Virus record (IMG/VR): IMGVR_UViG_3300009111_000005
Coordinates: 1 to 64,000 of that record
Source of the DNA: a virus
Taxonomy: Duplodnaviria; Caudoviricetes
Reading direction: 5' to 3' (one strand)
DNA length: 64,000 nt
This document shows, in pieces, positions 7,631 to 63,771 of the stretch. The translations under genes were made by a program, and so were the position numbers. The notes under the pieces were generated by a model that ran no database searches, was not told where the DNA came from, and saw only the letters and a list, made by a program, of their open reading frames with translations. The first letter of the stretch is position 1. Each line of letters starts with the position of its first letter.

Positions 7631-8207
7631 GGTCCAGAAGATACGCAAGTATCATCTGGCCTCGTATAACGCGGGCTGCGCCGAAGCCCACGCTATGCGG
7701 TGATAGCACCGGACCTCCGGGTCGTAGCCGGAGCGGCACATGATTCTGGGCACGCGCCCTCAGTGCCCCTGGGATGTACAGCGCCCCCGACGTTATTCGG
7801 GGAGGGTAGTGCTCTGCACTAGGCAGGGGCTTCGCACGGGATACCACCTCCACCCGATGCGGAGTTTCACCAGGCTGATAGAAAAGCAGGACCACGTCGC
7901 CTGGCGTGGGGAGGTAGGGTGCGGCCCACGGCAGACCTCTAGCCGGGCCGTGACGTCGCACCCGGGGCTTCTCCGAGCCCGCCCAACCGGCCTTCGCTAG
8001 AGGGTGCCAAGGATCGCAGTCGCTCCCAAAGGGAGATGACCGATGTTGCGAGAACCTGGCGCAATGAGCACGAGGGCAAAGAGGAGATAGGACGTCGCGC
8101 CCGAAAGCGTCGACCGCATTGGGACACCACGTACGGGTCCTCGCCATCCCTGGTAAGGCGTGAACCGGGAAACAACAGAGGAACTGAGAATCGTTCTCTG
8201 TTGTTTT
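7631..8207 (+). ncRNA. candidate large structured ncRNA (~575 nt)
   Basis: no credible ORF; promoter upstream; more than 10 hairpins including GATAC-GCAA-GTATC; terminator at end. Confidence 0.55.
8170..8207 (+). terminator. intrinsic terminator-like hairpin
   Basis: AACAACAGAGGAAC / GTTCTCTGTTGTT followed by T residues. Confidence 0.55.
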
Positions 8208-8259
8208 GCTTCGACGTCAGAAACGGATACCCAAAACCGTCTCAATGAAAGGAGACACC

Positions 8260-35144: not shown

Positions 35145-35417
35145 ATGCGCTTTTTTTGTTTACATCGCGTAGAAGACGAGACGGGGGTGTCGGGTAACGG
35201 TGTTGTTGCGTGGGGTACACAGTGGCCCGACGGTTCTGTGTCGATGCGATGGCTCGGCAAAACACCCAGCTTCGTGAGCTACGAAGGGGGTATTGAGCAC
35301 GTTCAAACAGTGCATGGACATCACGGCAAGACGATCATCATCTGGCAGGAATCATGTCGTTGCAAGGATCAGCATGACAGCTCTTCAAGTGGTTCAGGAT
35401 CTTCCGTTCCCGGATGA
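35145..35417 (+). CDS. conserved phage hypothetical protein
   Basis: DETGVSGNGVVAWG...DG.V..RW...VHGH.GKT motif. Confidence 0.7.
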   Translation: MRFFCLHRVEDETGVSGNGVVAWGTQWPDGSVSMRWLGKTPSFVSYEGGIEHVQTVHGHHGKTIIIWQESCRCKDQHDSSSSGSGSSVPG

Positions 35418-37122
35418 CGCAGTCACGGAGACATTCGCGTTCATCGGACGGAAGGGTGCGGGTAAGACGTACGGGGCAGGACGGTTCGTAGAAGAGCTAC
35501 TCGAGATCAAAGCGCAGGTTGTGGTTGTCGATACGGTCGGTAACTGGTATGGGTTGCGCCTCAGCAAGACAGGCAAACGCCAGGGCTACGACCTTCCTGT
35601 GTTCGGAGGCGAGCACGGGGATGTTCCTCTTGAGCGCACTGGCGGCGCACTCGTCGCGGATGTGCTCGTAGACCGGAACGTCTCTGTGGTGCTTGATCTG
35701 ACTCTGTTCAATCAGTCTGCCCGTCAGCAGTTCATGGTGGACTTCGCGGAGCGTCTCTTTCATCGGAAGACGCGTCAGCGTTCACCTATGCACCTTGTGC
35801 TCGAGGAAGCGCAGCGCTTGATCCCGCAGCAGACGCAAGGCAAAGGTGGGCTCATTCCTCGCCTCAAGGGCGCCATGGAAGAGATCGTCCGCATCGGCCG
35901 GAACTATGGCATCGGTTGTTCAATGCTTACCCAGCGGCCTCAGTCGGTCGACAAAGAGGTGCTCAATCAGACTGAGTGTCTTGTGGTGTTCCAGACCGTG
36001 GGCACGCATGAGCGCCGGGCCATCAAGGAGTGGATCGTTGACAAGGGGCTCGATGTAGACCTCATCGATGAACTGCCTTCGCTTCCGGTGGGCACAGCGT
36101 ACGTCTGGTCACCGCAGTGGCTCTCAACGCTGGGCAAGCACAAAGTGCTGCCGAAGCGCACCTACGACACGTCTGCGACGCCAAAACTCGGAATGAAGCG
36201 GCTGCCGCCAAGGCCTCTTTCCCGTGGAGACCTATCAGAGCTTCAAACCGCGATGTCCGAGTCCATCACCAAGGCTGAAGAACACGACCCGAGTGCATTA
36301 CGCCGTAAAGTACAAACGCTCACTGCGGAACTCGCAAAGCTTCGGGCACAAACGCCGGCCGAACCGAAGGTCGAGACACGCGTCAAAGAGAAGTCGGTGC
36401 TCACGGCCAGAGATAGAACGTTGCTTTCACGTTTGTGCAACGTCTTCATGTCTGAAGGAAACCGTCTCGAGCACCTGGTCGAAGGTATGCGTGGTGATGC
36501 GTTGGCTGCATCCAACATTGTGACACACGTACAGCAACTTTTGATTCCTGCATCGCCTACAGCGCTTGCTTCTCTTTCAGTGAAACCGCCTGTTCAACCT
36601 CCGATGAAACAGCCTCGTGCAGTGAAACCGGTGAAGCCTGACGGTGATGTGCAGCTCATCGGTAAGATGCGCGACATGCTTGCTGCTCTCGCAGCTACCA
36701 CAGGTCACACGCTCAGCCGCAAGCAACTGGCCGTCCAAGTGGGCATGAGCGTGAAGTCGGGCGGCTTCAATAACTACGTCGGCATGCTCTCTCGACAGGG
36801 GCTCGTCACGACTGCCAACGGAAACGTCGCGCTCACAGACACGGGGGCGTACCACGCAGAGGGCATCGAGATCGCGCACACGCCTGACGAGGTTTTCGCG
36901 CTGTGGTTGCCCAAGCTCGTGGGCAAGACCAAGGACATTTTGACGTTGCTCTTCAAACACCCAACGCGAATCTTCACACGCGCACAGGTGGCGGAAGAGG
37001 TCGGAATGAGCGTATCCTCGGGTGGCTTCAACAACTACGTGGGGATGCTCAGTAGACTCAATCTCATCGTCACAGGACACGGGTCGATGCGCCTCAACTG
37101 TGACGTGTTCAATCTTTCATGA
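35374..37122 (+). CDS. HerA/FtsK-like (DUF87-type) P-loop ATPase with tandem C-terminal winged-helix repeats
   Basis: Walker A GRKGAGKT, Walker B LVLEEAQ, GRNYG, TQRPQ; repeated GMS..SGGFNNYVGMLSR. Confidence 0.85.
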   Translation: MTALQVVQDLPFPDDAVTETFAFIGRKGAGKTYGAGRFVEELLEIKAQVVVVDTVGNWYGLRLSKTGKRQGYDLPVFGGEHGDVPLERTGGALVADVLVDRNVSVVLDLTLFNQSARQQFMVDFAERLFHRKTRQRSPMHLVLEEAQRLIPQQTQGKGGLIPRLKGAMEEIVRIGRNYGIGCSMLTQRPQSVDKEVLNQTECLVVFQTVGTHERRAIKEWIVDKGLDVDLIDELPSLPVGTAYVWSPQWLSTLGKHKVLPKRTYDTSATPKLGMKRLPPRPLSRGDLSELQTAMSESITKAEEHDPSALRRKVQTLTAELAKLRAQTPAEPKVETRVKEKSVLTARDRTLLSRLCNVFMSEGNRLEHLVEGMRGDALAASNIVTHVQQLLIPASPTALASLSVKPPVQPPMKQPRAVKPVKPDGDVQLIGKMRDMLAALAATTGHTLSRKQLAVQVGMSVKSGGFNNYVGMLSRQGLVTTANGNVALTDTGAYHAEGIEIAHTPDEVFALWLPKLVGKTKDILTLLFKHPTRIFTRAQVAEEVGMSVSSGGFNNYVGMLSRLNLIVTGHGSMRLNCDVFNLS

Positions 37123-37135
37123 CAAGGAGAAAACG

Positions 37136-37372
37136 ATGAGTGAAGCACCCGAGACCCAGGAAGAGACCACCCCGGTGGAGAACAACGAATCGGCTGACGT
37201 GCTGGTCATCGCTTCGAAGGTGAAGGCCTACGTCAAGACACTGGAGCCCACAATGCGTGTGGCCGGTGACTTCGCAGAAGGTCTGACGAGCGAAGTGCAG
37301 TACCTCATCCGACGAGCCATCAGTCGCGCTCGGTTGAACGGACGTGGCACGGTGCAGGCGCGGGACGTGTAG
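37136..37372 (+). CDS. bacterial-type histone-fold protein (Bd0055/HBb-like)
   Basis: VLVIASKVKAYVK...RAISRARLNGRGTVQARDV matches the LVVxSKVK...A..xGRxTVxARD signature; AAGGAG RBS. Confidence 0.85.
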   Translation: MSEAPETQEETTPVENNESADVLVIASKVKAYVKTLEPTMRVAGDFAEGLTSEVQYLIRRAISRARLNGRGTVQARDV

Positions 37373-37373
37373 T

Positions 37374-37886
37374 ATGCCGCTCAAGCATCCTGCACTTCAG
37401 CAGCTCAGCTTGTTGCCCTACGTCACGCTCGATGATGCACGGCAGACTGTCGCGAAAGCTGCGTACGGGAAGAAGGGCACGGTGTGCCCGTGCTGTGCCC
37501 AGATCGCCAAGGTATATACGCGCAAGCTCAATTCAGCGCTCGCACAGTTCCTCATCTGGATCGTGCGTTCCTATGAGGACAATCCTCGCTGGATTCACAT
37601 CCGCGAGTTCCCGATGATTCAGAATCGTCGCGGCGGTGGGGACTTTGCGAAGCTCGTGCACTACGGGCTGCTCGAGCAGCGACCGAACGAAGACGACAAG
37701 AGCAAACGCACGTCTGGGCAATGGAAACCTACCCAGAAGGCGAACGACTTCGTGCACAAGCGCATCAAGTTGCCCGAGTACGTGCAGCTCTACGACAACT
37801 ATGTGCAGGGCTTCGCTACGAAAGAGATCGACATCGAGGCAGCGCTCGGGCAGCAGTTCGACTATCAGGAGCTGATGAGCCGATGA
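37374..37886 (+). CDS. conserved phage protein (CPCC motif, probable winged helix)
   Basis: CPCC; KL.HYGLLE...SG.WKPT. Confidence 0.6.
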   Translation: MPLKHPALQQLSLLPYVTLDDARQTVAKAAYGKKGTVCPCCAQIAKVYTRKLNSALAQFLIWIVRSYEDNPRWIHIREFPMIQNRRGGGDFAKLVHYGLLEQRPNEDDKSKRTSGQWKPTQKANDFVHKRIKLPEYVQLYDNYVQGFATKEIDIEAALGQQFDYQELMSR

Positions 37887-38203
37887 CCGCTCAGTTTGAC
37901 CGTAAACGAGTAGACCGTTTCGTGTCGCGCGTGAAGAACGCGTTTCAGGGCAACGATGTCGATCTGGTGAAGTTCTGGATCTACATCACCTACAACATCA
38001 CGGACGATGCTGGTGTACCGCTCGCAGCGCGTCTCACGCCCGAGGACGAGTCCGGTGATGCGCCCTTGCGTGACACCTGGTTCGGGATGTCCTTGTGGGA
38101 GAAACAGGCGGTGCTCTTCGGTATGGTGCCGCTCATCGAGAGGTGCGCTGCTGTAGCTGCCGAAGCTGTAGCACAGCGTGCACGGAAAGAAGAACCGCTA
38201 TGA
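37883..38203 (+). CDS. hypothetical protein
   Basis: ATGA overlaps at both ends. Confidence 0.6.
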   Translation: MTAQFDRKRVDRFVSRVKNAFQGNDVDLVKFWIYITYNITDDAGVPLAARLTPEDESGDAPLRDTWFGMSLWEKQAVLFGMVPLIERCAAVAAEAVAQRARKEEPL

Positions 38204-38790
38204 AGGCAGAGCAACACGAAGTATCAGACGTGGGCGTCATCGAGACCTTCACCAACAAGTATGTTCCGCCCTTTGATGTCAAACCGGAACACATCTGTAT
38301 TGAAGACATTGCCCACGCGCTCTCGAATCAGTGTCGGTTCTCGGGGCACACGAAGCGCTTCTACTCGGTCGCTGAGCACGCCTGGCTCTGTTCGTACTAC
38401 GCACCGGCGCATCTCGCAGCCGAGGCGCTCATGCATGATGCCGCAGAGGCGTACCTCATCGACATCCCTCGGCCGCTCAAGCTCTACGTGAACTTCTTCA
38501 TCAGCGATGTGCGTCAGTTCAGCTACTACCAGGCTGAAGAGTACGTGCTCAAGGTGATCGGCGCCAAGTACGAGCTGAAGCTGCATCCTCAGTTGGAGAC
38601 GATCACCAAGCTGGACAACGCCCTTCTCGTGCGTGAGTATCTCACCCTCATCAATGAGAACTTGCCACCAGGACTCGTAGGGATGCCCCCACTGGACCTG
38701 ACTACGCAGACGATCGTGGGACATCTTCCGTCGGTAGCGAAAGGCCTCTTCATGGCACGCGCTATCGAGTTGGGCATCGGCCGAAAGTGA
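38200..38790 (+). CDS. HD-domain 5'-deoxynucleotidase (YfbR-like)
   Basis: IEDIAHALS..CRF.GH...FYSVAEH; LMHDAAEAY..DIP.PLK. Confidence 0.85.
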   Translation: MKAEQHEVSDVGVIETFTNKYVPPFDVKPEHICIEDIAHALSNQCRFSGHTKRFYSVAEHAWLCSYYAPAHLAAEALMHDAAEAYLIDIPRPLKLYVNFFISDVRQFSYYQAEEYVLKVIGAKYELKLHPQLETITKLDNALLVREYLTLINENLPPGLVGMPPLDLTTQTIVGHLPSVAKGLFMARAIELGIGRK

Positions 38791-38793
38791 GCC

Positions 38794-39399
38794 ATGAGCG
38801 CAACGAACCGCAAGCAGTCCGCGAAGGCCCACGACAAGTACCCCACGGACATTCGCTTGGTGCAGGCGGCGTTTGACCTGCTTACGGAGCACCATCCGCA
38901 GTTCGTTTCAAACGCGACACTGTTCCTGGAAGCGGGTGCGGGTCGTGGTCCATTCTGTGAGGTCGCGCGCACGTACTGTCGCAATCTTCAGTGTCGTCCG
39001 CTCGGTGTGGAACTGCATCCGGACGTGAAGCGGTTCGACTATCAGCTCATGCAACAGGATTTCTTATGCTGGAAGTCGCCTATACGTTTTGATTTTCAAG
39101 CAACGAATCCTCCTTTCACCTACGCTGAAGACTTCATCCGCAAGGGTCTTGAGATGCTTCAACCGCAGGGCATGATGCTCTACCTCATGCGCATCGGTGT
39201 CGCTGCCAGTGTGGGACGTACCGAACTCTGGGAAGAGGTCATCAAGCTCAAGGAGCTGTGGCTGATTCGGCGAAGGCCAAATTTCAACACGACACGCTCG
39301 GGAAGCTCAGATGCGACCGAGTATGCCTACTTCCTCATGACACATCGCACTCGCGAGAACGCAAAAGTGCCCACCATCTTTCGCTGGCTCGATTGGTGA
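38794..39399 (+). CDS. SAM-dependent amino (N6-adenine-type) DNA methyltransferase
   Basis: LEAGAGRG, DFL, NPPF. Confidence 0.75.
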   Translation: MSATNRKQSAKAHDKYPTDIRLVQAAFDLLTEHHPQFVSNATLFLEAGAGRGPFCEVARTYCRNLQCRPLGVELHPDVKRFDYQLMQQDFLCWKSPIRFDFQATNPPFTYAEDFIRKGLEMLQPQGMMLYLMRIGVAASVGRTELWEEVIKLKELWLIRRRPNFNTTRSGSSDATEYAYFLMTHRTRENAKVPTIFRWLDW

Positions 39400-41423: not shown

Positions 41424-42052
41424 GCGCACGAGACCGAACGCAACTTGCTTCACTAGGTTTTGCCGATCCTGACAAAAAGAATCCTGTGCACGACCTTGCG
41501 TGTCAATACATACATGAAAAGGATACACGGATACGGGTGTGTCAGAAACTCTTCGATAAGGATATGGGGGTGTATTCTTGGGTTCAGACTGAGTATCCGC
41601 TGTCCAAAGGGCAAGGTAGGTATAAAACAACCATTGGATTCCTAGATGTTGTTTTTCCATGGGGTATGGTTGCGTCGCCGGCACTCATGCGAAAAACAAT
41701 TGCAGGACAATCCTGTGGTCTCATCGTTGTTGAAGTGAAAACAACGAAACCGTTAGTCATGGGGGATACCATTCGTCAATTGCGTCTGTATCAAGAGTAT
41801 TGGGTACCTGAGGACCTTGTCCGTAAATTCTGGGAAGAGACACGCCAGTGGGACGTGGGTGCACGTCGTCTTTGTGAGGCAACGTACTGGGTGCTCGCAA
41901 CTACATTTCCTATTTCAAACGCTGAACGCGACTTTCTTTCCAAAGAAGGATTCCACCATGTATTTCTAGGTGATGGTTTTCAACATTGGATCGAAGCGCG
42001 TGAAGACAAGGCCTGCGCAGAAGAAAAGGAAAACTCGTGCGTATCAATCTAG
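41420..42052 (+). CDS. PD-(D/E)XK nuclease-like protein
   Basis: E...GFLDVV...VVEVKT...RQL..Y. Confidence 0.7.
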   Translation: MSARDRTQLASLGFADPDKKNPVHDLACQYIHEKDTRIRVCQKLFDKDMGVYSWVQTEYPLSKGQGRYKTTIGFLDVVFPWGMVASPALMRKTIAGQSCGLIVVEVKTTKPLVMGDTIRQLRLYQEYWVPEDLVRKFWEETRQWDVGARRLCEATYWVLATTFPISNAERDFLSKEGFHHVFLGDGFQHWIEAREDKACAEEKENSCVSI

Positions 42053-43488
42053 CCGGCTTCAACATCGACCGTGACGTCCTCCAGCAACACGTGCCCGCAA
42101 ATGACCCTCGGGCCTTCAATGCGCTGACTCCCGAAACTCTCTCCGCCGCCTACGCCCGCATCAGCCGGGCTCCTGAGCCCGTCGATGAATTACGGCGTAA
42201 AGCCGCGGAGGATGTGGCAGCGGCGAGGACATCGAACGAGAAGATCGTCTTCGGCTACGGGCACGCTTCCGTGGCTGAACACGCGGTCTTCAACTTCGAT
42301 CTCATCGACGTGTCGCGTCTCGCGATTGAAGCTGTTGAGCACGCACGCTTGTGCTCGTACACGGAGAAGTCGCAGCGCTACGTCACCTTCGATCGAGACA
42401 AGGTCGAGTACGTGGTCCCTGAAGAGATCATCGAGGTGGGTCTTCGGAACGAGTTCATGGACTTCATCAAGGAGACCCACGACCAGTACCACTTCATTCT
42501 TGGACGCATCAAGGATCAGGAGCGCCCACAGGGAGGCACTGCGCAAGAAGACGCGAGGTACGTGTCTACGCTCGCGGTAGCTGGTCAGCTCGGGATGACG
42601 TGCAATGCACGCAACCTCGAGACACTCATTCGTCGCTTGGTCGCGCATCCCCTCGAAGAAGTGCGCGGTATCGGTCAGACGCTGTATGTGCGCGCCAAAG
42701 ACGTGGCTCCGTCCTTGCTCAAATACGCTACGCCGGAACCCTTGCGGTTGGCACAGACCAGCAAAGTGCAGGAGGCATTGCGGCTTCAGTGTGCGGGACT
42801 CTTCGCAGCCCCCGCAGAACGAGTCGAGTTGCTCGCGGCCACGGGCAACATGGAGGGCGGGAGCGGGGGAGACCACATCATCTTATCGGCTCTGGTGCAC
42901 CAGGTCTCGCGCGTGCCCTTCGACATGTGCTTTGCGACTGTCGCACGTCTTTCTCCCGAACAGCGCAAGGGACTCATGCTGAACGTCCTCTCCACGATGG
43001 ACGTCTACAGCGCCGCACCGCGCTGCTTCGAAATGTGCGATCTGACCTTTGAGCTGATCGTGTCCGCGAGCTGTTTCGCGCAGCTCAAACGGCATCGGAT
43101 GCTCACACTGCTTCCTCAGATGTACGACCCCTCACTGGGCTACACGATCCCTGCGTCTGTTGCGCAGGACGAGCCTGCCCTCGAACGGTTCAAGGCGGTG
43201 ATGAGGACAGCGGAGGCGTTCTACAAGAAGCTGGCCCGGGTGTGCAACGAATCTCTCGCCGAGTATGTGCTCACCCAGGCGCATCGTCGCCGAGCGCTCG
43301 TGAAGATGAATGCGCGCGAAGCCTACGCGTTCAGCCGCCTCCGCGAAGACAAGCACGCTCAGTGGGAAATTCGTGAAATTGCACAACAAGTGATGGGATT
43401 GGCGCGACGCGTGATGCCTCTGACGATGGCGCTGGCGTGTGGAAAGGACGCCTTCGAAGAATGGCGTAAACAAGTACTTTCCTGTTGA
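42037..43488 (+). CDS. thyX: FAD-dependent thymidylate synthase (tandem-domain ThyX)
   Basis: GHASVAEH, SRLA..., SYTEKSQRYV; second domain QLKRHR...REDKHAQWEIR. Confidence 0.9.
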   Translation: MRINLAGFNIDRDVLQQHVPANDPRAFNALTPETLSAAYARISRAPEPVDELRRKAAEDVAAARTSNEKIVFGYGHASVAEHAVFNFDLIDVSRLAIEAVEHARLCSYTEKSQRYVTFDRDKVEYVVPEEIIEVGLRNEFMDFIKETHDQYHFILGRIKDQERPQGGTAQEDARYVSTLAVAGQLGMTCNARNLETLIRRLVAHPLEEVRGIGQTLYVRAKDVAPSLLKYATPEPLRLAQTSKVQEALRLQCAGLFAAPAERVELLAATGNMEGGSGGDHIILSALVHQVSRVPFDMCFATVARLSPEQRKGLMLNVLSTMDVYSAAPRCFEMCDLTFELIVSASCFAQLKRHRMLTLLPQMYDPSLGYTIPASVAQDEPALERFKAVMRTAEAFYKKLARVCNESLAEYVLTQAHRRRALVKMNAREAYAFSRLREDKHAQWEIREIAQQVMGLARRVMPLTMALACGKDAFEEWRKQVLSC

Positions 43489-43883: not shown

Positions 43884-44222
43884 ATGAAACGGCTGTACGT
43901 AGGGAATCTCCCCTACGCGACCACGAAAGAGGATCTCGAGGACCGCTTCGGACAGCATGGTGAACTGACCGACGTGAAGGTCATCACCGATCGTGAGACT
44001 GGGCGCAGCAAGGGTTTCGCCTTCGTGGAGTTCAAGAACGAAGGGGATGCCGAAGCCGCGCTCAGCGAGGATGGGATGGACTTCAACGGACGTCCCATGC
44101 GCGTGAAAGAAGCGGAACAGAAGGAACGTCGCAACAACGATAACGGGCACCGTCAGGAAGGACGTGGTGGGCGGCCCGGAAGTCGTGAAGGTCGTGGTGG
44201 GCGGAGAGACGCACGAGAATAG
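43884..44222 (+). CDS. RRM RNA-binding protein
   Basis: RNP2 LYVGNL, RNP1 KGFAFVEF, Gly/Arg-rich tail. Confidence 0.95.
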   Translation: MKRLYVGNLPYATTKEDLEDRFGQHGELTDVKVITDRETGRSKGFAFVEFKNEGDAEAALSEDGMDFNGRPMRVKEAEQKERRNNDNGHRQEGRGGRPGSREGRGGRRDARE

Positions 44223-44309: not shown

Positions 44310-45119
44310 ATGATCTATACGTTTGGTTGGAGACGAGATCTGCCTGACCATAGGGACTACACGCAAGAACACGCAGCGGTGAAGCTTATCCTGGGTTCGT
44401 CCAAACCCTTGCAGGCAGCAAAGAGCACGCGACCGGCCACCAAGGACTTGCGTGAGTACTGTTCGCCCATCGAGAACCAGGATGTGCTGGGATCATGCAC
44501 GGCACACGCAGGCGTGGGGCTCATGGAGTGGTTCCAGCGTCGTGCGTATGGCAAGCACCTCAACATGAGTCGTCTCTTCCTCTACAAGGTTGCACGTCGG
44601 CTGGTTGGCATCAAAGGCGATGAAGGATGCTATCTGCGAACGACAATGCAGGCCATGCTCATGCTCGGAGTTCCTCCGGAGAATTTCTGGCCCTACAAGG
44701 TCGCTGACTTCGAGAAAGAACCCGACGCATTCATCTATTCCCTGGCGCACAAGTTCGAAGCGTACAGCTACTACAAGCTGTACCCCACCAGGGATAAGAG
44801 CCTGATTGACGTTCTACGTGATCATCTCGCAGGTGGATTGCCGTTCATGTTTGGATTCACCGTCTACTCCAGTATCTCGAATGACGGTTGGATTCCCATT
44901 CCAGGTCCTGCTGATCGCGTGGAGGGGGGCCATGCCGTCATGGCCGTGGGATACGACGATACCAAGAAGGCCTTCCTGATCCGCAATTCGTGGGGTACGA
45001 GCTGGGGCCACAGCGGCTATGGCTGGCTACCGTATTGGTACTTCGAAAACGGTCAGGCCGAGGATTGCTGGTCGCTGGTGCGAGCGAACTTCATCGATAC
45101 CGACCTGTTCAAGGTTTGA
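44310..45119 (+). CDS. papain-like C1 family cysteine peptidase
   Basis: NQ..LGSCTAH, GGHAV.AVGYDD, IRNSWG. Confidence 0.92.
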   Translation: MIYTFGWRRDLPDHRDYTQEHAAVKLILGSSKPLQAAKSTRPATKDLREYCSPIENQDVLGSCTAHAGVGLMEWFQRRAYGKHLNMSRLFLYKVARRLVGIKGDEGCYLRTTMQAMLMLGVPPENFWPYKVADFEKEPDAFIYSLAHKFEAYSYYKLYPTRDKSLIDVLRDHLAGGLPFMFGFTVYSSISNDGWIPIPGPADRVEGGHAVMAVGYDDTKKAFLIRNSWGTSWGHSGYGWLPYWYFENGQAEDCWSLVRANFIDTDLFKV

Positions 45120-45256: not shown

Positions 45257-45331
45257 GGGTCGGTAGCCCAACTGGAAGCTGGCGCCAGCCTCAGGAGCTG
45301 GTTGTTGTGGGTTCGAATCCCTCCCGACCCA
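45257..45331 (+). tRNA. tRNA-Leu(CAG), short variable loop
   Basis: GGGTCGG/CCGACCC; CCAGC-CTCAGGA-GCTGG; V-loop TTGTT; A73. Confidence 0.85.
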
Positions 45332-45335
45332 CCGC

Positions 45336-45422
45336 GGAAGGTGCCCATAAGGCAGGCCGGGCCTGCGGCTGACTGTAGATCAGCTCCCGCACGGGCGAGT
45401 GGTTCGACTCCATCACCTTCCA
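45336..45422 (+). tRNA. tRNA-Tyr(GTA)
   Basis: GCTGA-CTGTAGA-TCAGC; long variable arm. Confidence 0.9.
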
Positions 45423-45428
45423 CCGTGT

Positions 45429-45503
45429 GCCGCGGTAGCCCAAATGGAAGCTGGCGCCAGGCTAAGGACCTGGAGGTTGCGGGTTCGAATCCCGCCCGCG
45501 GTA
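45429..45503 (+). tRNA. tRNA-Leu(AAG), short variable loop
   Basis: CCAGG-CTAAGGA-CCTGG; V-loop AGGTT; A73. Confidence 0.85.
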
Positions 45504-45507
45504 CTTC

Positions 45508-45581
45508 GGGTCGGTAGCCCAACCGGAAGTGGCCCCCGTCTCAAAAGCGGGCATATGCGGGTTCGAATCCCGTCCGACCCA
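45508..45581 (+). tRNA. tRNA-Leu(CAA), short variable loop
   Basis: CCCGT-CTCAAAA-GCGGG; V-loop CATAT; A73. Confidence 0.85.
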
Positions 45582-45973
45582 CTGAAGGGGATAAGGAACG
45601 GCGCCGCCTGCGCGAGAACGTTGCAGGTCCCCGTCTGACTGAAACAGTCGTTGAGTAGCCTCTCGGCCGGCGCCATCACGATTATAGCTTGCCGGCAGGA
45701 TCTCATCTTCGCTGGTGACGCTGATCATCTGGCTGTACCCGTACCCACCATAGAAAAAAGGCGCTGTGACCGTTTCCGATCAGAGCGCCTACCTTCGCCT
45801 CACGTTTCCGTTCAGCGAACAGACTACATGGTACAAGAAGGGTTCTGAGACGTCAACACTTTTCTTTAGGCCCATAGGGAAAGACCCAGGAGGGCCGTCC
45901 TGGGTCTTTCGAGAAGCTCGACAACAGGGAAAGAATGGCGACAGTCAAAGCGTATCGTAACGGCCCTTATTGG

Positions 45974-62070: not shown

Positions 62071-63771
62071 CTAGGCTGTGAAGCTCTTCGTCGACAACGT
62101 GGATGGAATCACACCTGCGAGCGCCGAGTTTGCGGCGAGCTGCGTGGTGAGACACGCCATCACCGCAGTGACCCAGGCGAACATCGCATTTGCCATGATC
62201 GGACTGACCATCCAGAAGACCATGCCGAGAGGGGGTGCGAGAACTCCAAGAAGTGCAGCAGTAGCCGCGATGGCTGCGGACAAGCCTCCGATGTTTGTGC
62301 CGGTGTATGCCCCAAAAGCAGTGGCATACAGCGTACCTTTGACCAGGGGATTGGCCATGCTCGCCGCCACAGGTCCCAGGTTCACAGTGGTGCCGTCGAC
62401 GTTCGCTACACCTAGACTCGTTTTGAGCGTGGCAATGCCTGCCGTTGTTTCGAGGGTCGCATTACCGAGTAATGTCGAGTAGAGCAGGTTGCCTTTGGTG
62501 GTGACTTTGTTTTCGATGTCACCCATGAAGGTGCTCAATTTGAAACCAGCGAGCGCTGCGGGATTGGCTCCAGAGAGCGGGTTGCCGATGTCGATCTTCC
62601 AACCGGCGTTGAGTGTTGTTTCGCGTGCGAGGTCACCTGGCTTCATGAGGGCGACGTTGCCCCCTACGACCTTCTCTTCATGTTTGCCCCCGATGGTCTC
62701 CGTGAGGTGACGCTGGATGCTGGTGGTTCGGTCGTTACCAACGTTGAGCGTGTCGCTCATGGCGACAACGGTTTCACGCGTACCATCCACACGTTCAGTT
62801 TGGGTACCGCGTACCGTGAGGTTTTCATCTCCTTTGGTATCTTGAAGACGATTCCCGATGGTGACTTCGCGACGGTCGGCTCCGCAATTCTCTTCGATCC
62901 CTTGTGCAGCGTAGACAGTGAGTTTTCCCTCGTTGTTGACGTGGAATTTGAAGTTCGTGCTTCCATCGGCTTGGGTCAACTCGAAGCGAAAGATGTCGCC
63001 CTCTGCGCCCAGGTCCATGCGTATGGTCCAGTTCTCCTGATCCGCGCCTGCTTCGGTGAGTTGGTCTGCGCCACCACGGAAGGACCATGTGATGCGTCCA
63101 CCGTCATTCTTCACTTCGGATACACCCATATCCGTGACGTGACGGAAGTTACGCGAGATCACTTCAATGAGGTCATTGATCAGGTGGGTACGGATTTGCG
63201 CCAAGGATGATGATTTCATCACGTTGACGCCACCGCCGAGAACAGCGAGTAGGTTTCCTTCTTCCCCAATTTGTGCCCAATCGTTGGCACCCATGTCGCG
63301 AGGGGTGTTCTTGGTGCGATAGTTGGCACCACTTTCACGTTGTTCCGTCGGGTCGTTGCCGCCTGTGTTGCTTTCTCCGCTGATGCTTAGACGGTTTTCG
63401 TTATCTTCGCGTCCACTGGTAAAGGGAAGTACTCCGACGATGATGGTGGGGCCATACTCATCGGAAAGTGCGACCACGGTTCCGATGGGTAACATTTGTT
63501 TGTCACCCGGGTTCTGCGTCATGCGTCCGATGTCTTTACGGATGGCAACACCATCCCCGATGGCAACTTCTATGTCGTAGGTGTGCGTGTCGGGATTGCG
63601 ATCGGCGATGACGCCTGTGTAGCCCTGACCACGCGCTTTCATTGCGCCCTGGCCAGAGGCATCTTCACGTAGCGCTTTCCCTTTTTTTAGGGTTTGCGCG
63701 TCATGAGGAATGCTGACGGTGCGTTCGAAGAAAGGACGAAAAGGATTACCGCTGATGGGGGTGTCAGACAT
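62071..63771 (-). CDS. gp5/VgrG-like baseplate central spike
   Basis: N-terminal OB-fold-like segment; beta-helix repeats (VRGTQTERVDG, VGNDRTTSI, IGGKHEEKVVG). Confidence 0.75.
   Translation of the reverse strand: MSDTPISGNPFRPFFERTVSIPHDAQTLKKGKALREDASGQGAMKARGQGYTGVIADRNPDTHTYDIEVAIGDGVAIRKDIGRMTQNPGDKQMLPIGTVVALSDEYGPTIIVGVLPFTSGREDNENRLSISGESNTGGNDPTEQRESGANYRTKNTPRDMGANDWAQIGEEGNLLAVLGGGVNVMKSSSLAQIRTHLINDLIEVISRNFRHVTDMGVSEVKNDGGRITWSFRGGADQLTEAGADQENWTIRMDLGAEGDIFRFELTQADGSTNFKFHVNNEGKLTVYAAQGIEENCGADRREVTIGNRLQDTKGDENLTVRGTQTERVDGTRETVVAMSDTLNVGNDRTTSIQRHLTETIGGKHEEKVVGGNVALMKPGDLARETTLNAGWKIDIGNPLSGANPAALAGFKLSTFMGDIENKVTTKGNLLYSTLLGNATLETTAGIATLKTSLGVANVDGTTVNLGPVAASMANPLVKGTLYATAFGAYTGTNIGGLSAAIAATAALLGVLAPPLGMVFWMVSPIMANAMFAWVTAVMACLTTQLAANSALAGVIPSTLSTKSFTA

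What the first reader, a model, noticed from the sequence alone, without database searches (positions are those of the whole stretch)
37136..37372. Phage-encoded bacterial histone (Bd0055-like)
Seen: after an acidic 20-aa leader, VLVIASKVKAYVK...LIRRAISRARLNGRGTVQARDV gives a single histone fold with the R-x-T-V-x2-R-D terminus. Known: Bdellovibrio Bd0055 (HBb) and Leptospira histones have this signature and bind or coat DNA. Inference: the phage may coat its DNA for protection from nucleases or remodel host chromatin. It also hints at a histone-bearing host lineage. The acidic N-tail is atypical.
Basis: partly seen in the sequence, partly recalled or inferred. Interest (0 to 1): 0.75.

Follow-up and report, generated by a model that had tools for sequence, protein, structure and literature searches.

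The report
Phage face-to-face histone, acidic tail
A large uncultured wetland and freshwater phage carries a real gene for a miniature bacterial/archaeal-type histone, of the four-subunit "face-to-face" kind and not the Bdellovibrio kind; such phage histones are already catalogued, and the only unusual feature is a strongly acidic front tail instead of the lysine-rich one described.

Summary
Window 37136-37372 (+) is a 78-codon gene with a strong ribosome-binding site. It encodes a disordered 21-residue tail (net charge -7, no Lys or Arg) followed by a 57-residue alpha3-truncated histone fold (net +5).

The best sequence and fold matches are HTkC (PDB 9F2C), HLp (9QT0) and then HBb/Bd0055. The protein keeps the face-to-face (FtF) tetramer residues R64, N68 and R70, which Bd0055-type dimers lack. 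It ends at the same C-terminal position as HTkC. A four-copy model rebuilds the FtF dimer-dimer interface, and a tree places the protein outside the bacterial-dimer clade. It is therefore FtF-type, not Bd0055-like.

Phage FtF histones are already catalogued from IMG/VR (Liu et al., hLife 2025), with Lys-rich tails. This scan has also found phage FtF histones several times on other DNA. What is new here is a small phage clade of 9 clusters with a conserved acidic tail that makes the whole protein net negative.

The most likely mechanism is a tetramer that wraps DNA in the infected cell, with the tail acting as an electrostatic damper. This is inference and was not tested. Neither nuclease protection nor a histone-bearing host is supported by any evidence. 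The upstream ATPase is absent from a related phage. Interest is modest.

The parts
37124..37129 (+). Shine-Dalgarno sequence AAGGAG, 6 nt before the ATG
   Evidence: Read directly. It is conserved in the related phage L003.
37136..37372 (+). Histone gene: 78 codons plus TAG stop (protein P0001)
37136..37198 (+). Codons 1-21: disordered acidic N-terminal tail (net -7, no Lys or Arg, rich in Glu, Thr, Asn and Pro)
   Evidence: pLDDT is below 50 for residues 2-17. In 8 of 9 family clusters the tail is 20-21 aa with charge -6 or -7, although two different tail sequences exist. Against L003 there are 6 non-synonymous changes and 1 synonymous change.
37199..37369 (+). Codons 22-78: alpha3-truncated histone fold. 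Elements are alpha1 (26-36), L1, alpha2 (46-67), L2 and alpha3 (75-77). It holds the tetramer triad R64/N68/R70, the RD clamp R70-D77, and DNA-contact equivalents A26, S27, K28, K30, K34, G44 and T72.
   Evidence: Omega is 0.27 against L003.
37374..37886 (+). Downstream gene of 170 aa (phage-only family phrog_2693, weakly winged-helix-like). Its ATG lies 1 nt after the histone stop, so it is probably co-transcribed. It is a conserved neighbour in L003 (about 96-97% aa identity).
35374..37122 (+). Upstream HerA/FtsK-like P-loop ATPase with C-terminal winged-helix repeats. It ends 13 nt before the histone ATG. It is a variable neighbour and not a fixed partner.
   Evidence: Pfam and PHROG matches. 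It is absent from the otherwise syntenic phage L002/L003. A 27%-identical homologue lies 2 kb upstream of a divergent histone on a 199,919-bp contig.

Best explanation
The gene encodes a face-to-face (FtF) type alpha3-truncated histone made by a large tailed phage. Two chains should form the usual histone handshake dimer. Two dimers should then close into a ring-shaped tetramer through R64, N68 and R70 on one dimer and the last residues (R76-D77-V78 and the C-terminal carboxylate) on the other. DNA should wrap non-specifically around that ring through the start of alpha1 (A26, S27, K28, K30, K34) and the L1/L2 loops (G44, T72), as shown for HLp (about 60 bp) and HTkC.

The gene sits among nucleotide-metabolism and DNA-modification genes, not among virion genes. 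The protein therefore most likely compacts or organises DNA inside the infected cell: the phage's own replicating DNA, or the host nucleoid.

The four acidic tails (-28 against +20 for the four cores) leave the fold right at the DNA-binding end of alpha1. They most likely act as an in-built electrostatic shield that lowers and tunes non-specific DNA binding, as the acidic tail of phage phi29 protein p6 does.

Shown here: the gene, the fold and the FtF signature. Modelled only: the tetramer. Inferred: DNA wrapping, the target DNA and the role of the tail.
For: - **Sequence:** HTkC E 1e-10, then HLp 5e-7, then HBb 1e-4.
- **Fold:** core pLDDT above 90 and a 3-residue alpha3. TM is 0.90-0.93 to HTkC and HLp at rmsd 1.0 A.
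- **FtF residues:** R64, N68 and R70 correspond to HLp R49, N53 and R55 and to R48/N52 of the FtF logo. R64 corresponds to HTkC R45, whose R45A mutant is a dimer. The protein ends at the same position as HTkC.
- **Nearest sequence space:** 75 of 91 singlet homologues from an exhaustive search carry the full R..N.R.T....D signature.
- **DNA contacts:** the residues that contact DNA in HLp are kept.
- **Four-copy model:** ipSAE 0.89 against 0.00 for the best of 3 controls; runs agree in at least 97% of contacts; partner pLDDT at least 92. In the tool's calibration the mark was reached by 20 of 30 proteins solved as pairs and 1 of 23 solved as single chains. That calibration used two copies and its own alignments, so it holds only roughly here. 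The partner touches its dimer mate and also a second dimer through residues 63-64, 67-68 and 76-78, which is the FtF interface. Similar tetramers are solved, so this pass shows likeness and may come from memory.
- **Tree:** the family lies in the half dominated by the FtF signature, apart from the dimer clade of Chlamydiota, Myxococcota, Bdellovibrionota and Spirochaetota.
- **Context:** the same strand carries an HD dNMP phosphatase, a DNA methyltransferase and a tandem ThyX. Baseplate and virion genes lie elsewhere.
- **Tail:** length, charge and absence of Lys/Arg are kept across two different tail sequences. The core is more basic than the median homologue (+5 against +3), while the whole protein is net -2; only 1 of 82 other clusters is that low.
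- **phi29 p6 precedent:** its acidic tail lowers DNA affinity (PMC10899789).
Against: - No experiment exists on any phage FtF histone.
- Pfam and PHROGs do not recognise the protein.
- The tetramer is only a model and resembles solved structures.
- HLp S52, T56 and T61 are replaced here by L67, G71 and R76.
- Deep nodes of the tree are weak.
- Protein-level selection on the tail is not shown by the one DNA pair available: 6 non-synonymous against 1 synonymous change, from tiny counts.
- A net-negative tetramer might bind DNA poorly.
- Which DNA is bound, and when the gene is expressed, are unknown.
Confidence: 0.6

Rival explanations
1. Bd0055/HBb-like bacterial dimer histone. It stays a dimer and bends DNA, or coats it end-on as a filament, protecting phage DNA from nucleases.
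For: HBb is a significant sequence and fold match (E 1e-4, TM 0.83). The N-terminal VLVIASKVK motif is shared with many dimer-type proteins of Chlamydiota and Myxococcota, at 45-48% identity.
Against: Dimer-type histones lack R48 and N52, whereas this protein has both. It scores lower against HBb than against HTkC and HLp. It lies outside the dimer clade. Dimer-type proteins mostly run 1-3 residues beyond the alpha3 turn, whereas this one ends like HTkC. The four-copy model gives confident dimer-dimer contacts. There is no evidence on nuclease protection.
Confidence: 0.1
2. It is not a DNA organiser but a decoy. The acidic-tailed histone fold binds basic host proteins, or co-assembles with a host histone or nucleoid protein, and so disturbs host chromatin or a defence system. 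The tail would act as a DNA mimic.
For: The whole protein is net negative, at the extreme of the family. The tail is kept in composition. Long acidic tails recur in 7 other homologue clusters.
Against: The DNA-contact residues and a +5 core are kept. No host is known and no host histone is shown. No partner is conserved: the ATPase is dispensable and the downstream gene belongs to a broad phage family.
Confidence: 0.1
3. A gene-specific regulator: a histone-fold protein that binds particular phage promoters or the replication origin, not DNA in general. Phage-encoded HU-type proteins such as SPO1 TF1 do this (own knowledge).
For: It lies in an early/middle-type gene block next to probable winged-helix proteins. 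Lowered non-specific affinity from the tail would fit a need for selectivity.
Against: The solved relatives bind DNA non-specifically through the backbone. No base-reading element or repeated site was found. This was not specifically searched for.
Confidence: 0.1
4. A packaged internal virion protein that travels with the DNA. The acidic tail would be a propeptide or capsid-targeting segment removed by the head protease.
For: Many phage internal proteins carry cleaved N-terminal segments (own knowledge). A weak head-protease-like match exists elsewhere in the record.
Against: The gene lies among nucleotide-metabolism genes on the opposite strand from the virion block. A net -2 protein would not neutralise DNA charge.
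Confidence: 0.06

Closest known systems
HTkC, face-to-face alpha3 histone of Thermococcus kodakarensis (PDB 9F2C; PMC11390915; bioRxiv 10.64898/2025.12.06.692711)
   Same: It is the best sequence and fold match (E 1e-10, 44% identity, TM 0.90, rmsd 1.0 A). It has the same length of fold and the same C-terminal end. R64 here corresponds to its tetramer-critical R45. It has the RxTxxxxD clamp.
   Different: It is archaeal and chromosomal and has no N-terminal tail. At the N52 position HTkC has Glu, whereas this protein has the consensus Asn.
HLp, face-to-face histone of Leptospira perolatii (PDB 9QT0-9QT2; PMC12701072)
   Same: 40% identity and TM 0.93. The ASKVKAY(I/V)K DNA-contact stretch matches almost residue for residue. 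R49, N53 and R55 correspond to R64, N68 and R70, and the RD clamp is present. HLp is a tetramer that wraps about 60 bp.
   Different: HLp is a cellular, apparently principal nucleoid protein with a short neutral N-terminus. This protein has a 2-residue longer L1 loop. HLp S52, T56 and T61 are L67, G71 and R76 here.
[quoted passage not shown]
   Same: It is phage-encoded, FtF-like, has a predicted tetramer and has an N-terminal tail within the stated 5-40 aa range. This is the category it belongs to.
   Different: The described tails are enriched in lysine. This tail has no Lys or Arg and carries -7. None of the class has been tested experimentally.
HBb / Bd0055 of Bdellovibrio bacteriovorus, 'bacterial dimer' alpha3 histone (PDB 8CMP, 8FVX, 9EZZ)
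   Same: It has an alpha3-truncated fold, the RD clamp and alpha1 lysines; 33% identity, TM 0.83.
   Different: HBb lacks the R48/N52 tetramer residues and is a dimer. This protein has them and lies outside the dimer clade.
Protein p6 of Bacillus phage phi29 (PMC10899789): a functional analogue, not a homologue
   Same: It is a small, phage-encoded genome-organising protein around which DNA wraps. Its disordered acidic tail lowers DNA affinity by shielding the basic surface.
   Different: It has an unrelated fold, its tail is C-terminal, and it forms filaments rather than closed tetramers.

Membership tests
alpha3-truncated prokaryotic histones (Schwab et al. 2024) | Histone fold: alpha1-L1-alpha2-L2-alpha3 | tested here: met
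   AF2 model with core pLDDT above 90. The nine best Foldseek PDB hits are all HTkC, HLp or HBb.
alpha3-truncated prokaryotic histones (Schwab et al. 2024) | alpha3 cut to 3-4 residues and a shortened alpha2 | tested here: met
   alpha3 spans residues 75-77 and alpha2 spans 46-67 (22 residues); the protein ends at residue 78.
alpha3-truncated prokaryotic histones (Schwab et al. 2024) | RxTxxxxD motif (RD clamp) | tested here: met
   R70, T72 and D77. T72 is invariant, and R70 and D77 are kept in at least 95% of 91 homologues.
Face-to-face (FtF) histones | Conserved tetramerisation residues: R48 and N52 in the FtF logo; R49, N53 and R55 in HLp; R45 in HTkC | tested here: met
   R64, N68 and R70 by alignment to 9F2C and 9QT0.
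Face-to-face (FtF) histones | Closed torus-shaped homotetramer | tested here: inconclusive
   The four-copy model scores ipSAE 0.89 against 0.00 for the best control and has contacts at 63-64, 67-68 and 76-78 between dimers. This is a model only and resembles solved tetramers, so it may come from memory. The oligomer was not measured.
Face-to-face (FtF) histones | Conserved solvent-exposed alpha1 lysines for DNA binding | tested here: met
   K28, K30 and K34 correspond to HLp K15, K17 and K21. Each is Lys or Arg in 76-91 of 91 homologues.
Face-to-face (FtF) histones | Non-specific DNA wrapping (about 60 bp per tetramer) | not testable with these tools
   Needs EMSA, MNase or tethered-particle assays.
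Bacterial dimer histones (Bd0055/HBb type) | Absence of R48 and N52; dimer only | tested here: not met
   Both residues are present. The protein lies outside the dimer clade, which has 93/85 support.
[quoted passage not shown] 2025) | Encoded by a tailed phage | tested here: met
   IMG/VR virus record. It has a baseplate hub / tail lysozyme match, 9 tRNAs plus a tmRNA, and phage-only neighbour families.
[quoted passage not shown] 2025) | N-terminal tail of 5-40 aa enriched in lysine | tested here: not met
   The length fits (21 aa), but the tail has 0 Lys/Arg and 7 Asp/Glu. The paper describes Lys-rich tails only.
'Phage histones' of Schwab et al. 2024 (A0A2E7QIQ9 type) | C-terminal tetramerisation helix; no RxTxxxD motif | tested here: not met
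   There is no C-terminal extension and the motif is present.
DUF1931 pseudodimeric histones and tandem doublets | Two histone folds in one chain | tested here: not met
   It has a single fold of 57 residues. The nearest clusters outside its own family are 118-128 aa doublets at 43-45% identity. Pfam DUF1931 gives no hit.

The most novel reading that the evidence does not exclude
The acidic tail may turn a DNA-wrapping histone into something new: either a switchable histone whose DNA binding is held off until a partner or signal displaces the tail, or an anti-chromatin factor whose DNA-mimicking tails capture host nucleoid or defence proteins, or which poisons a host histone by co-assembling with it. 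Acidic Glu/Thr-rich tails recur in 7 other homologue clusters, one of them on a 180-kb contig. This could therefore be an unrecognised functional subclass of viral histones.
Probability: 0.12. Interest if true: 0.75.

Novelty: new variant of a known kind. Interest (0 to 1): 0.38.

Why it matters
Miniature histones of bacteria, archaea and now phages are a young field. Only HBb, HLp and HTkC have been studied at the bench, and no phage copy has. This gene adds a well-supported phage FtF histone whose tail has the opposite charge to the tails described. It therefore offers a natural test of how a disordered tail tunes histone-DNA wrapping, by comparing the full-length protein with residues 22-78. 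It also corrects the filing from Bd0055-like to FtF. Finally, it shows that the neighbouring ATPase is not an obligatory partner.

Tried and rejected
- **Family libraries:** Pfam and PHROGs gave no usable match for the protein. Its relatives only graze PF00808.
- **Phage records:** tblastn against 50,697 GenBank phage records found no match. Two scans of viral contigs found no relative other than the own record, which may be left out of that search.
- The contigs of relatives P0003, P0007-P0009 and P0119 could therefore not be read.
- **Failed scan:** alignment A3 was too diverse for a genome scan.
- **Discarded model:** single-sequence AlphaFold2 gave one long helix. It was replaced by the alignment-based model.
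- **BFVD fold search:** only weak matches, namely giant-virus histones and one uncharacterised 64-aa phage protein.
- **Expression:** no RNA holder was listed among the sequencing runs, so nothing can be said about expression. The runs laid were contigs only.
- **Host inference:** megablast matched only a tRNA-Gln of Stenotrophomonas phages. The virion-side ORFs are too divergent for PHROGs.
- **Opposite-strand ORF 37109-37384 (91 aa):** rejected, because the + frame has the homology.
- **Overprinted gene in the tail region:** rejected. The alternative frame is open for only 17 codons and has no start codon.
- **ATPase and histone as a fixed module:** rejected as obligatory, because the ATPase is missing in the syntenic phage L002/L003.
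- **Other nucleoid proteins:** no HU/IHF gene and no second histone were found in the 87-kb record, which is only about half the genome.

Full report
**What is there.** Window 37136-37372 (+) is an ORF of 78 codons. AAGGAG at 37124-37129 lies 6 nt before the ATG. The stop codon of the upstream gene is 13 nt before the ATG. The ATG of the downstream gene is 1 nt after the histone's TAG. The window is the first 64 kb of an IMG/VR virus record of 87,370 bp that CheckV rates 49% complete. The record carries 9 tRNAs and a tmRNA. It has a baseplate hub / tail lysozyme match at 62071-63771, and most of its ORFs are unknown to PHROGs. The phage reading is sound. The start codon is supported in three ways:
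- the ribosome-binding site;
- the fact that all nine family members start at the same Met;
- the different sequence upstream of the site in a related phage, while the protein is conserved from Met1 onwards.

**Is it a histone?** Yes.
- phmmer against all PDB chains gives HTkC of Thermococcus kodakarensis (9F2C) at E 1e-10, HLp of Leptospira perolatii (9QT0) at 5e-7, and HBb/Bd0055 (8CMP, 8FVX) at 1e-4. The entries were identified from the papers.
- A single-sequence fold was useless.
- With a 91-row alignment, AlphaFold2 gives core pLDDT above 90, helices at 26-36, 46-67 and 75-77, and a disordered tail at residues 2-17.
- Foldseek returns HTkC (TM 0.90, rmsd 1.0 A, 44% identity), HLp (TM 0.93) and HBb (TM 0.83) ahead of eukaryotic histone-fold proteins.
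- Pfam and PHROGs miss the protein. JGI names two relatives 'histone H3/H4'.

**Which kind of histone?** Schwab et al. define face-to-face (FtF) histones by a closed tetramer held by R48 and N52 of their logo, next to the RxTxxxxD motif. Bacterial dimers such as Bd0055 lack R48 and N52. In HLp the tetramer residues are R49, N53 and R55. In HTkC, R45 binds the C-terminal carboxylate of the opposing dimer, and the R45A mutant is a dimer. Five lines of evidence place the phage protein in the FtF class:
- By the alignments it has R64, N68 and R70 at these places, the RD clamp R70-D77, and the same last residue position as HTkC.
- The HLp DNA contacts A13, S14, K15, K17, K21, G29 and T57 correspond to A26, S27, K28, K30, K34, G44 and T72.
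- Of 91 singlet homologues from an exhaustive HMMER search of 1.8 billion representatives, 75 carry the full R..N.R.T....D signature.
- In a maximum-likelihood tree (57 columns, weak deep nodes) the nine-member family is one clade. It sits in the half dominated by that signature, which includes an HTkC-like sequence. The dimer-type proteins of Chlamydiota, Myxococcota, Bdellovibrionota and Spirochaetota form a separate clade with 93/85 support.
- A four-copy model of residues 19-78 scores ipSAE 0.89 against 0.00 for the best of three controls. Runs agree in at least 97% of contacts and partner pLDDT is at least 92. In the tool's calibration the mark was reached by 20 of 30 proteins solved as pairs and 1 of 23 solved as single chains; that calibration used two copies and other alignments, so it holds only roughly. 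Besides the handshake dimer, the scored copy touches a second dimer through residues 63-64, 67-68 and 76-78, which is the FtF interface. Similar tetramers are solved, so this shows likeness and not proof.

The filing is therefore FtF, not Bd0055-like.

**The tail.** Residues 1-21 hold 7 Asp/Glu and no Lys/Arg. The core is +5 and the whole protein is -2, with pI about 5.1 against 10.5 for the core alone. Among 82 other homologue clusters the median core charge is +3 and the median total is +3, and only one cluster has a total of -2 or lower. In the family, 8 of 9 clusters keep a 20-21 aa tail of charge -6 or -7 without any basic residue, although two quite different tail sequences exist. One member has a short 8-aa tail. 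Composition is thus conserved while sequence is not, as is usual for a functional disordered segment.

The single DNA comparison available gives 6 non-synonymous changes and 1 synonymous change in the tail. The core gives dS 0.78 and omega 0.27. Neighbouring genes have dS of 0.15-1.2. The low synonymous rate of the first 63 nt may reflect the known constraint on mRNA near start codons (own knowledge), or recombination. An overprinted frame was excluded. Long acidic tails also occur in 7 other clusters, against 6 with long basic tails. Acidic tails are therefore not unique in sequence space, although the literature describes only Lys-rich ones.

**Context.** A related phage from JGI metagenomes (L002/L003; histone 72% identical) keeps the following order:
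- a 205-aa gene;
- a small ORF;
- the histone;
- the 170-aa phrog_2693 gene (about 96-97% identical);
- a small ORF;
- an HD dNMP phosphatase (90%);
- a DNA methyltransferase (80%);
- a tandem ThyX (86%).

It lacks the 1.75-kb HerA/FtsK-like ATPase gene that precedes the histone in the window. The alignment shows a clean presence/absence boundary. The ATPase is therefore not an obligatory partner. However, a 27%-identical homologue lies 2 kb upstream of a divergent histone on a 199,919-bp contig. The downstream gene belongs to a broad phage-only family with a weak winged-helix resemblance. The block is nucleotide metabolism and DNA modification. Probable virion genes are on the other strand from about 46 kb onwards. 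No HU/IHF gene and no second histone is present in the 87 kb held.

**Distribution.**
- The exact protein is on 10 contigs, the longest 93,472 bp.
- Runs from wetland and freshwater metagenomes of several studies hold the stretch. Contigs covering the histone gene and its flanks were laid from two studies other than the likely source, with 0 and 1 differing letters.
- The pattern-limited scan of the genome collection found no relative above 48% identity; those found come from Myxococcota, Chlamydiota, Bdellovibrionota, Spirochaetota and Pseudomonadota MAGs, and most are dimer-type.
- Nothing points to a recent host donor or identifies the host.

**Mechanism.** By homology with HLp (tetramer, about 60 bp wrapped, reorganises the E. 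coli nucleoid) and HTkC (DNA encircles the torus, strong compaction), the core should wrap DNA non-specifically. The tails leave the fold at the N-terminal end of alpha1, which is a DNA-contact point in HLp. Together they outweigh the positive charge of the core. The best-supported idea is an electrostatic shield that lowers non-specific binding. This was measured for the acidic tail of phi29 p6, where tail deletion lowers Kd from 2.46 to 1.47 uM and simulations place the tail on the basic patch. Which DNA is bound, and to what end (phage DNA organisation, host shut-off or nuclease protection), cannot be decided here.

**What is known.** Phage-encoded FtF-like histone-fold proteins were catalogued from IMG/VR by Liu et al. 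(bioRxiv 2024; hLife 2025). They are described with 5-40 aa Lys-rich tails and are characterised only by prediction. The 'phage histones' of Schwab et al. are a different type, with a C-terminal helix and no RxTxxxD motif. Earlier notes of this scan report phage FtF histones on several other large uncultured phages, and one acidic histone-fold protein. These are unchecked AI notes and I did not rely on them, but my own tests reach the same class. This is therefore a new variant (acidic tail, net-negative protein) of a known kind.

**Verdict.** The protein is FtF-type, not Bd0055-like. The function is inferred. Interest is modest.

Noticed in passing
window 35374-37122: A HerA/FtsK-like P-loop ATPase with two C-terminal winged-helix repeats is present here but cleanly absent from the otherwise syntenic related phage L002/L003. 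A 27%-identical homologue lies 2 kb upstream of a divergent histone on a 199,919-bp contig (L022). It may be a mobile accessory gene or a loose functional link.
   Followed up: partly
window 37136-37198 against L003 8001-8063: The first 21 codons of the histone gene have 1 synonymous and 6 non-synonymous differences (dS 0.08), whereas the core has dS 0.78. Tails are near-identical in P0005, whose core is only 67% identical, but are replaced in P0007 and P0009, whose cores are 79% identical. This suggests nucleotide-level constraint or recombination inside the gene.
   Followed up: partly
window 37884-38203: The small ORF after the phrog_2693 gene gives omega about 1.6 with dS 0.15 against L003. 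The called frame or the gene itself may be wrong; a 160-aa ORF at 37721-38203 overlaps it.
   Followed up: no
window 42037-43488: A 483-aa protein with two Thy1 (ThyX, flavin-dependent thymidylate synthase) domains in tandem (Pfam E 7e-60). It lies downstream of the HD dNMP phosphatase (38095-38790) and the DNA methyltransferase (38794-39399).
   Followed up: partly
window 43884-44222: A 112-aa protein with a clear RNA-recognition motif (RRM_1, E 5e-25) encoded by a phage. It is conserved in L003 (81%).
   Followed up: no
window 44310-45119: A papain-family (Peptidase_C1) cysteine protease homologue (E 6e-14) in the same gene block.
   Followed up: no
window 33028-34464 and 45257-45582: Two tRNA clusters (9 tRNAs) and a tmRNA at 33104-33481 with an 18-residue tag ending in ALAA. 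A tRNA nucleotidyltransferase homologue lies at 8206-9609.
   Followed up: no
L021 and L022 (both ends of contig Ga0265292_1000080, 199,919 bp): A divergent 63-aa histone-fold gene that lacks the R/N triad appears at both ends of the contig with one residue different. This suggests a terminal repeat or a circular assembly of a roughly 200-kb phage.
   Followed up: no
proteins P0010-P0015: The nearest clusters outside the family are 118-128 aa tandem doublets in which both halves carry the FtF signature. They appear to be pseudodimeric FtF histones and match Pfam DUF1931 only below its threshold.
   Followed up: partly
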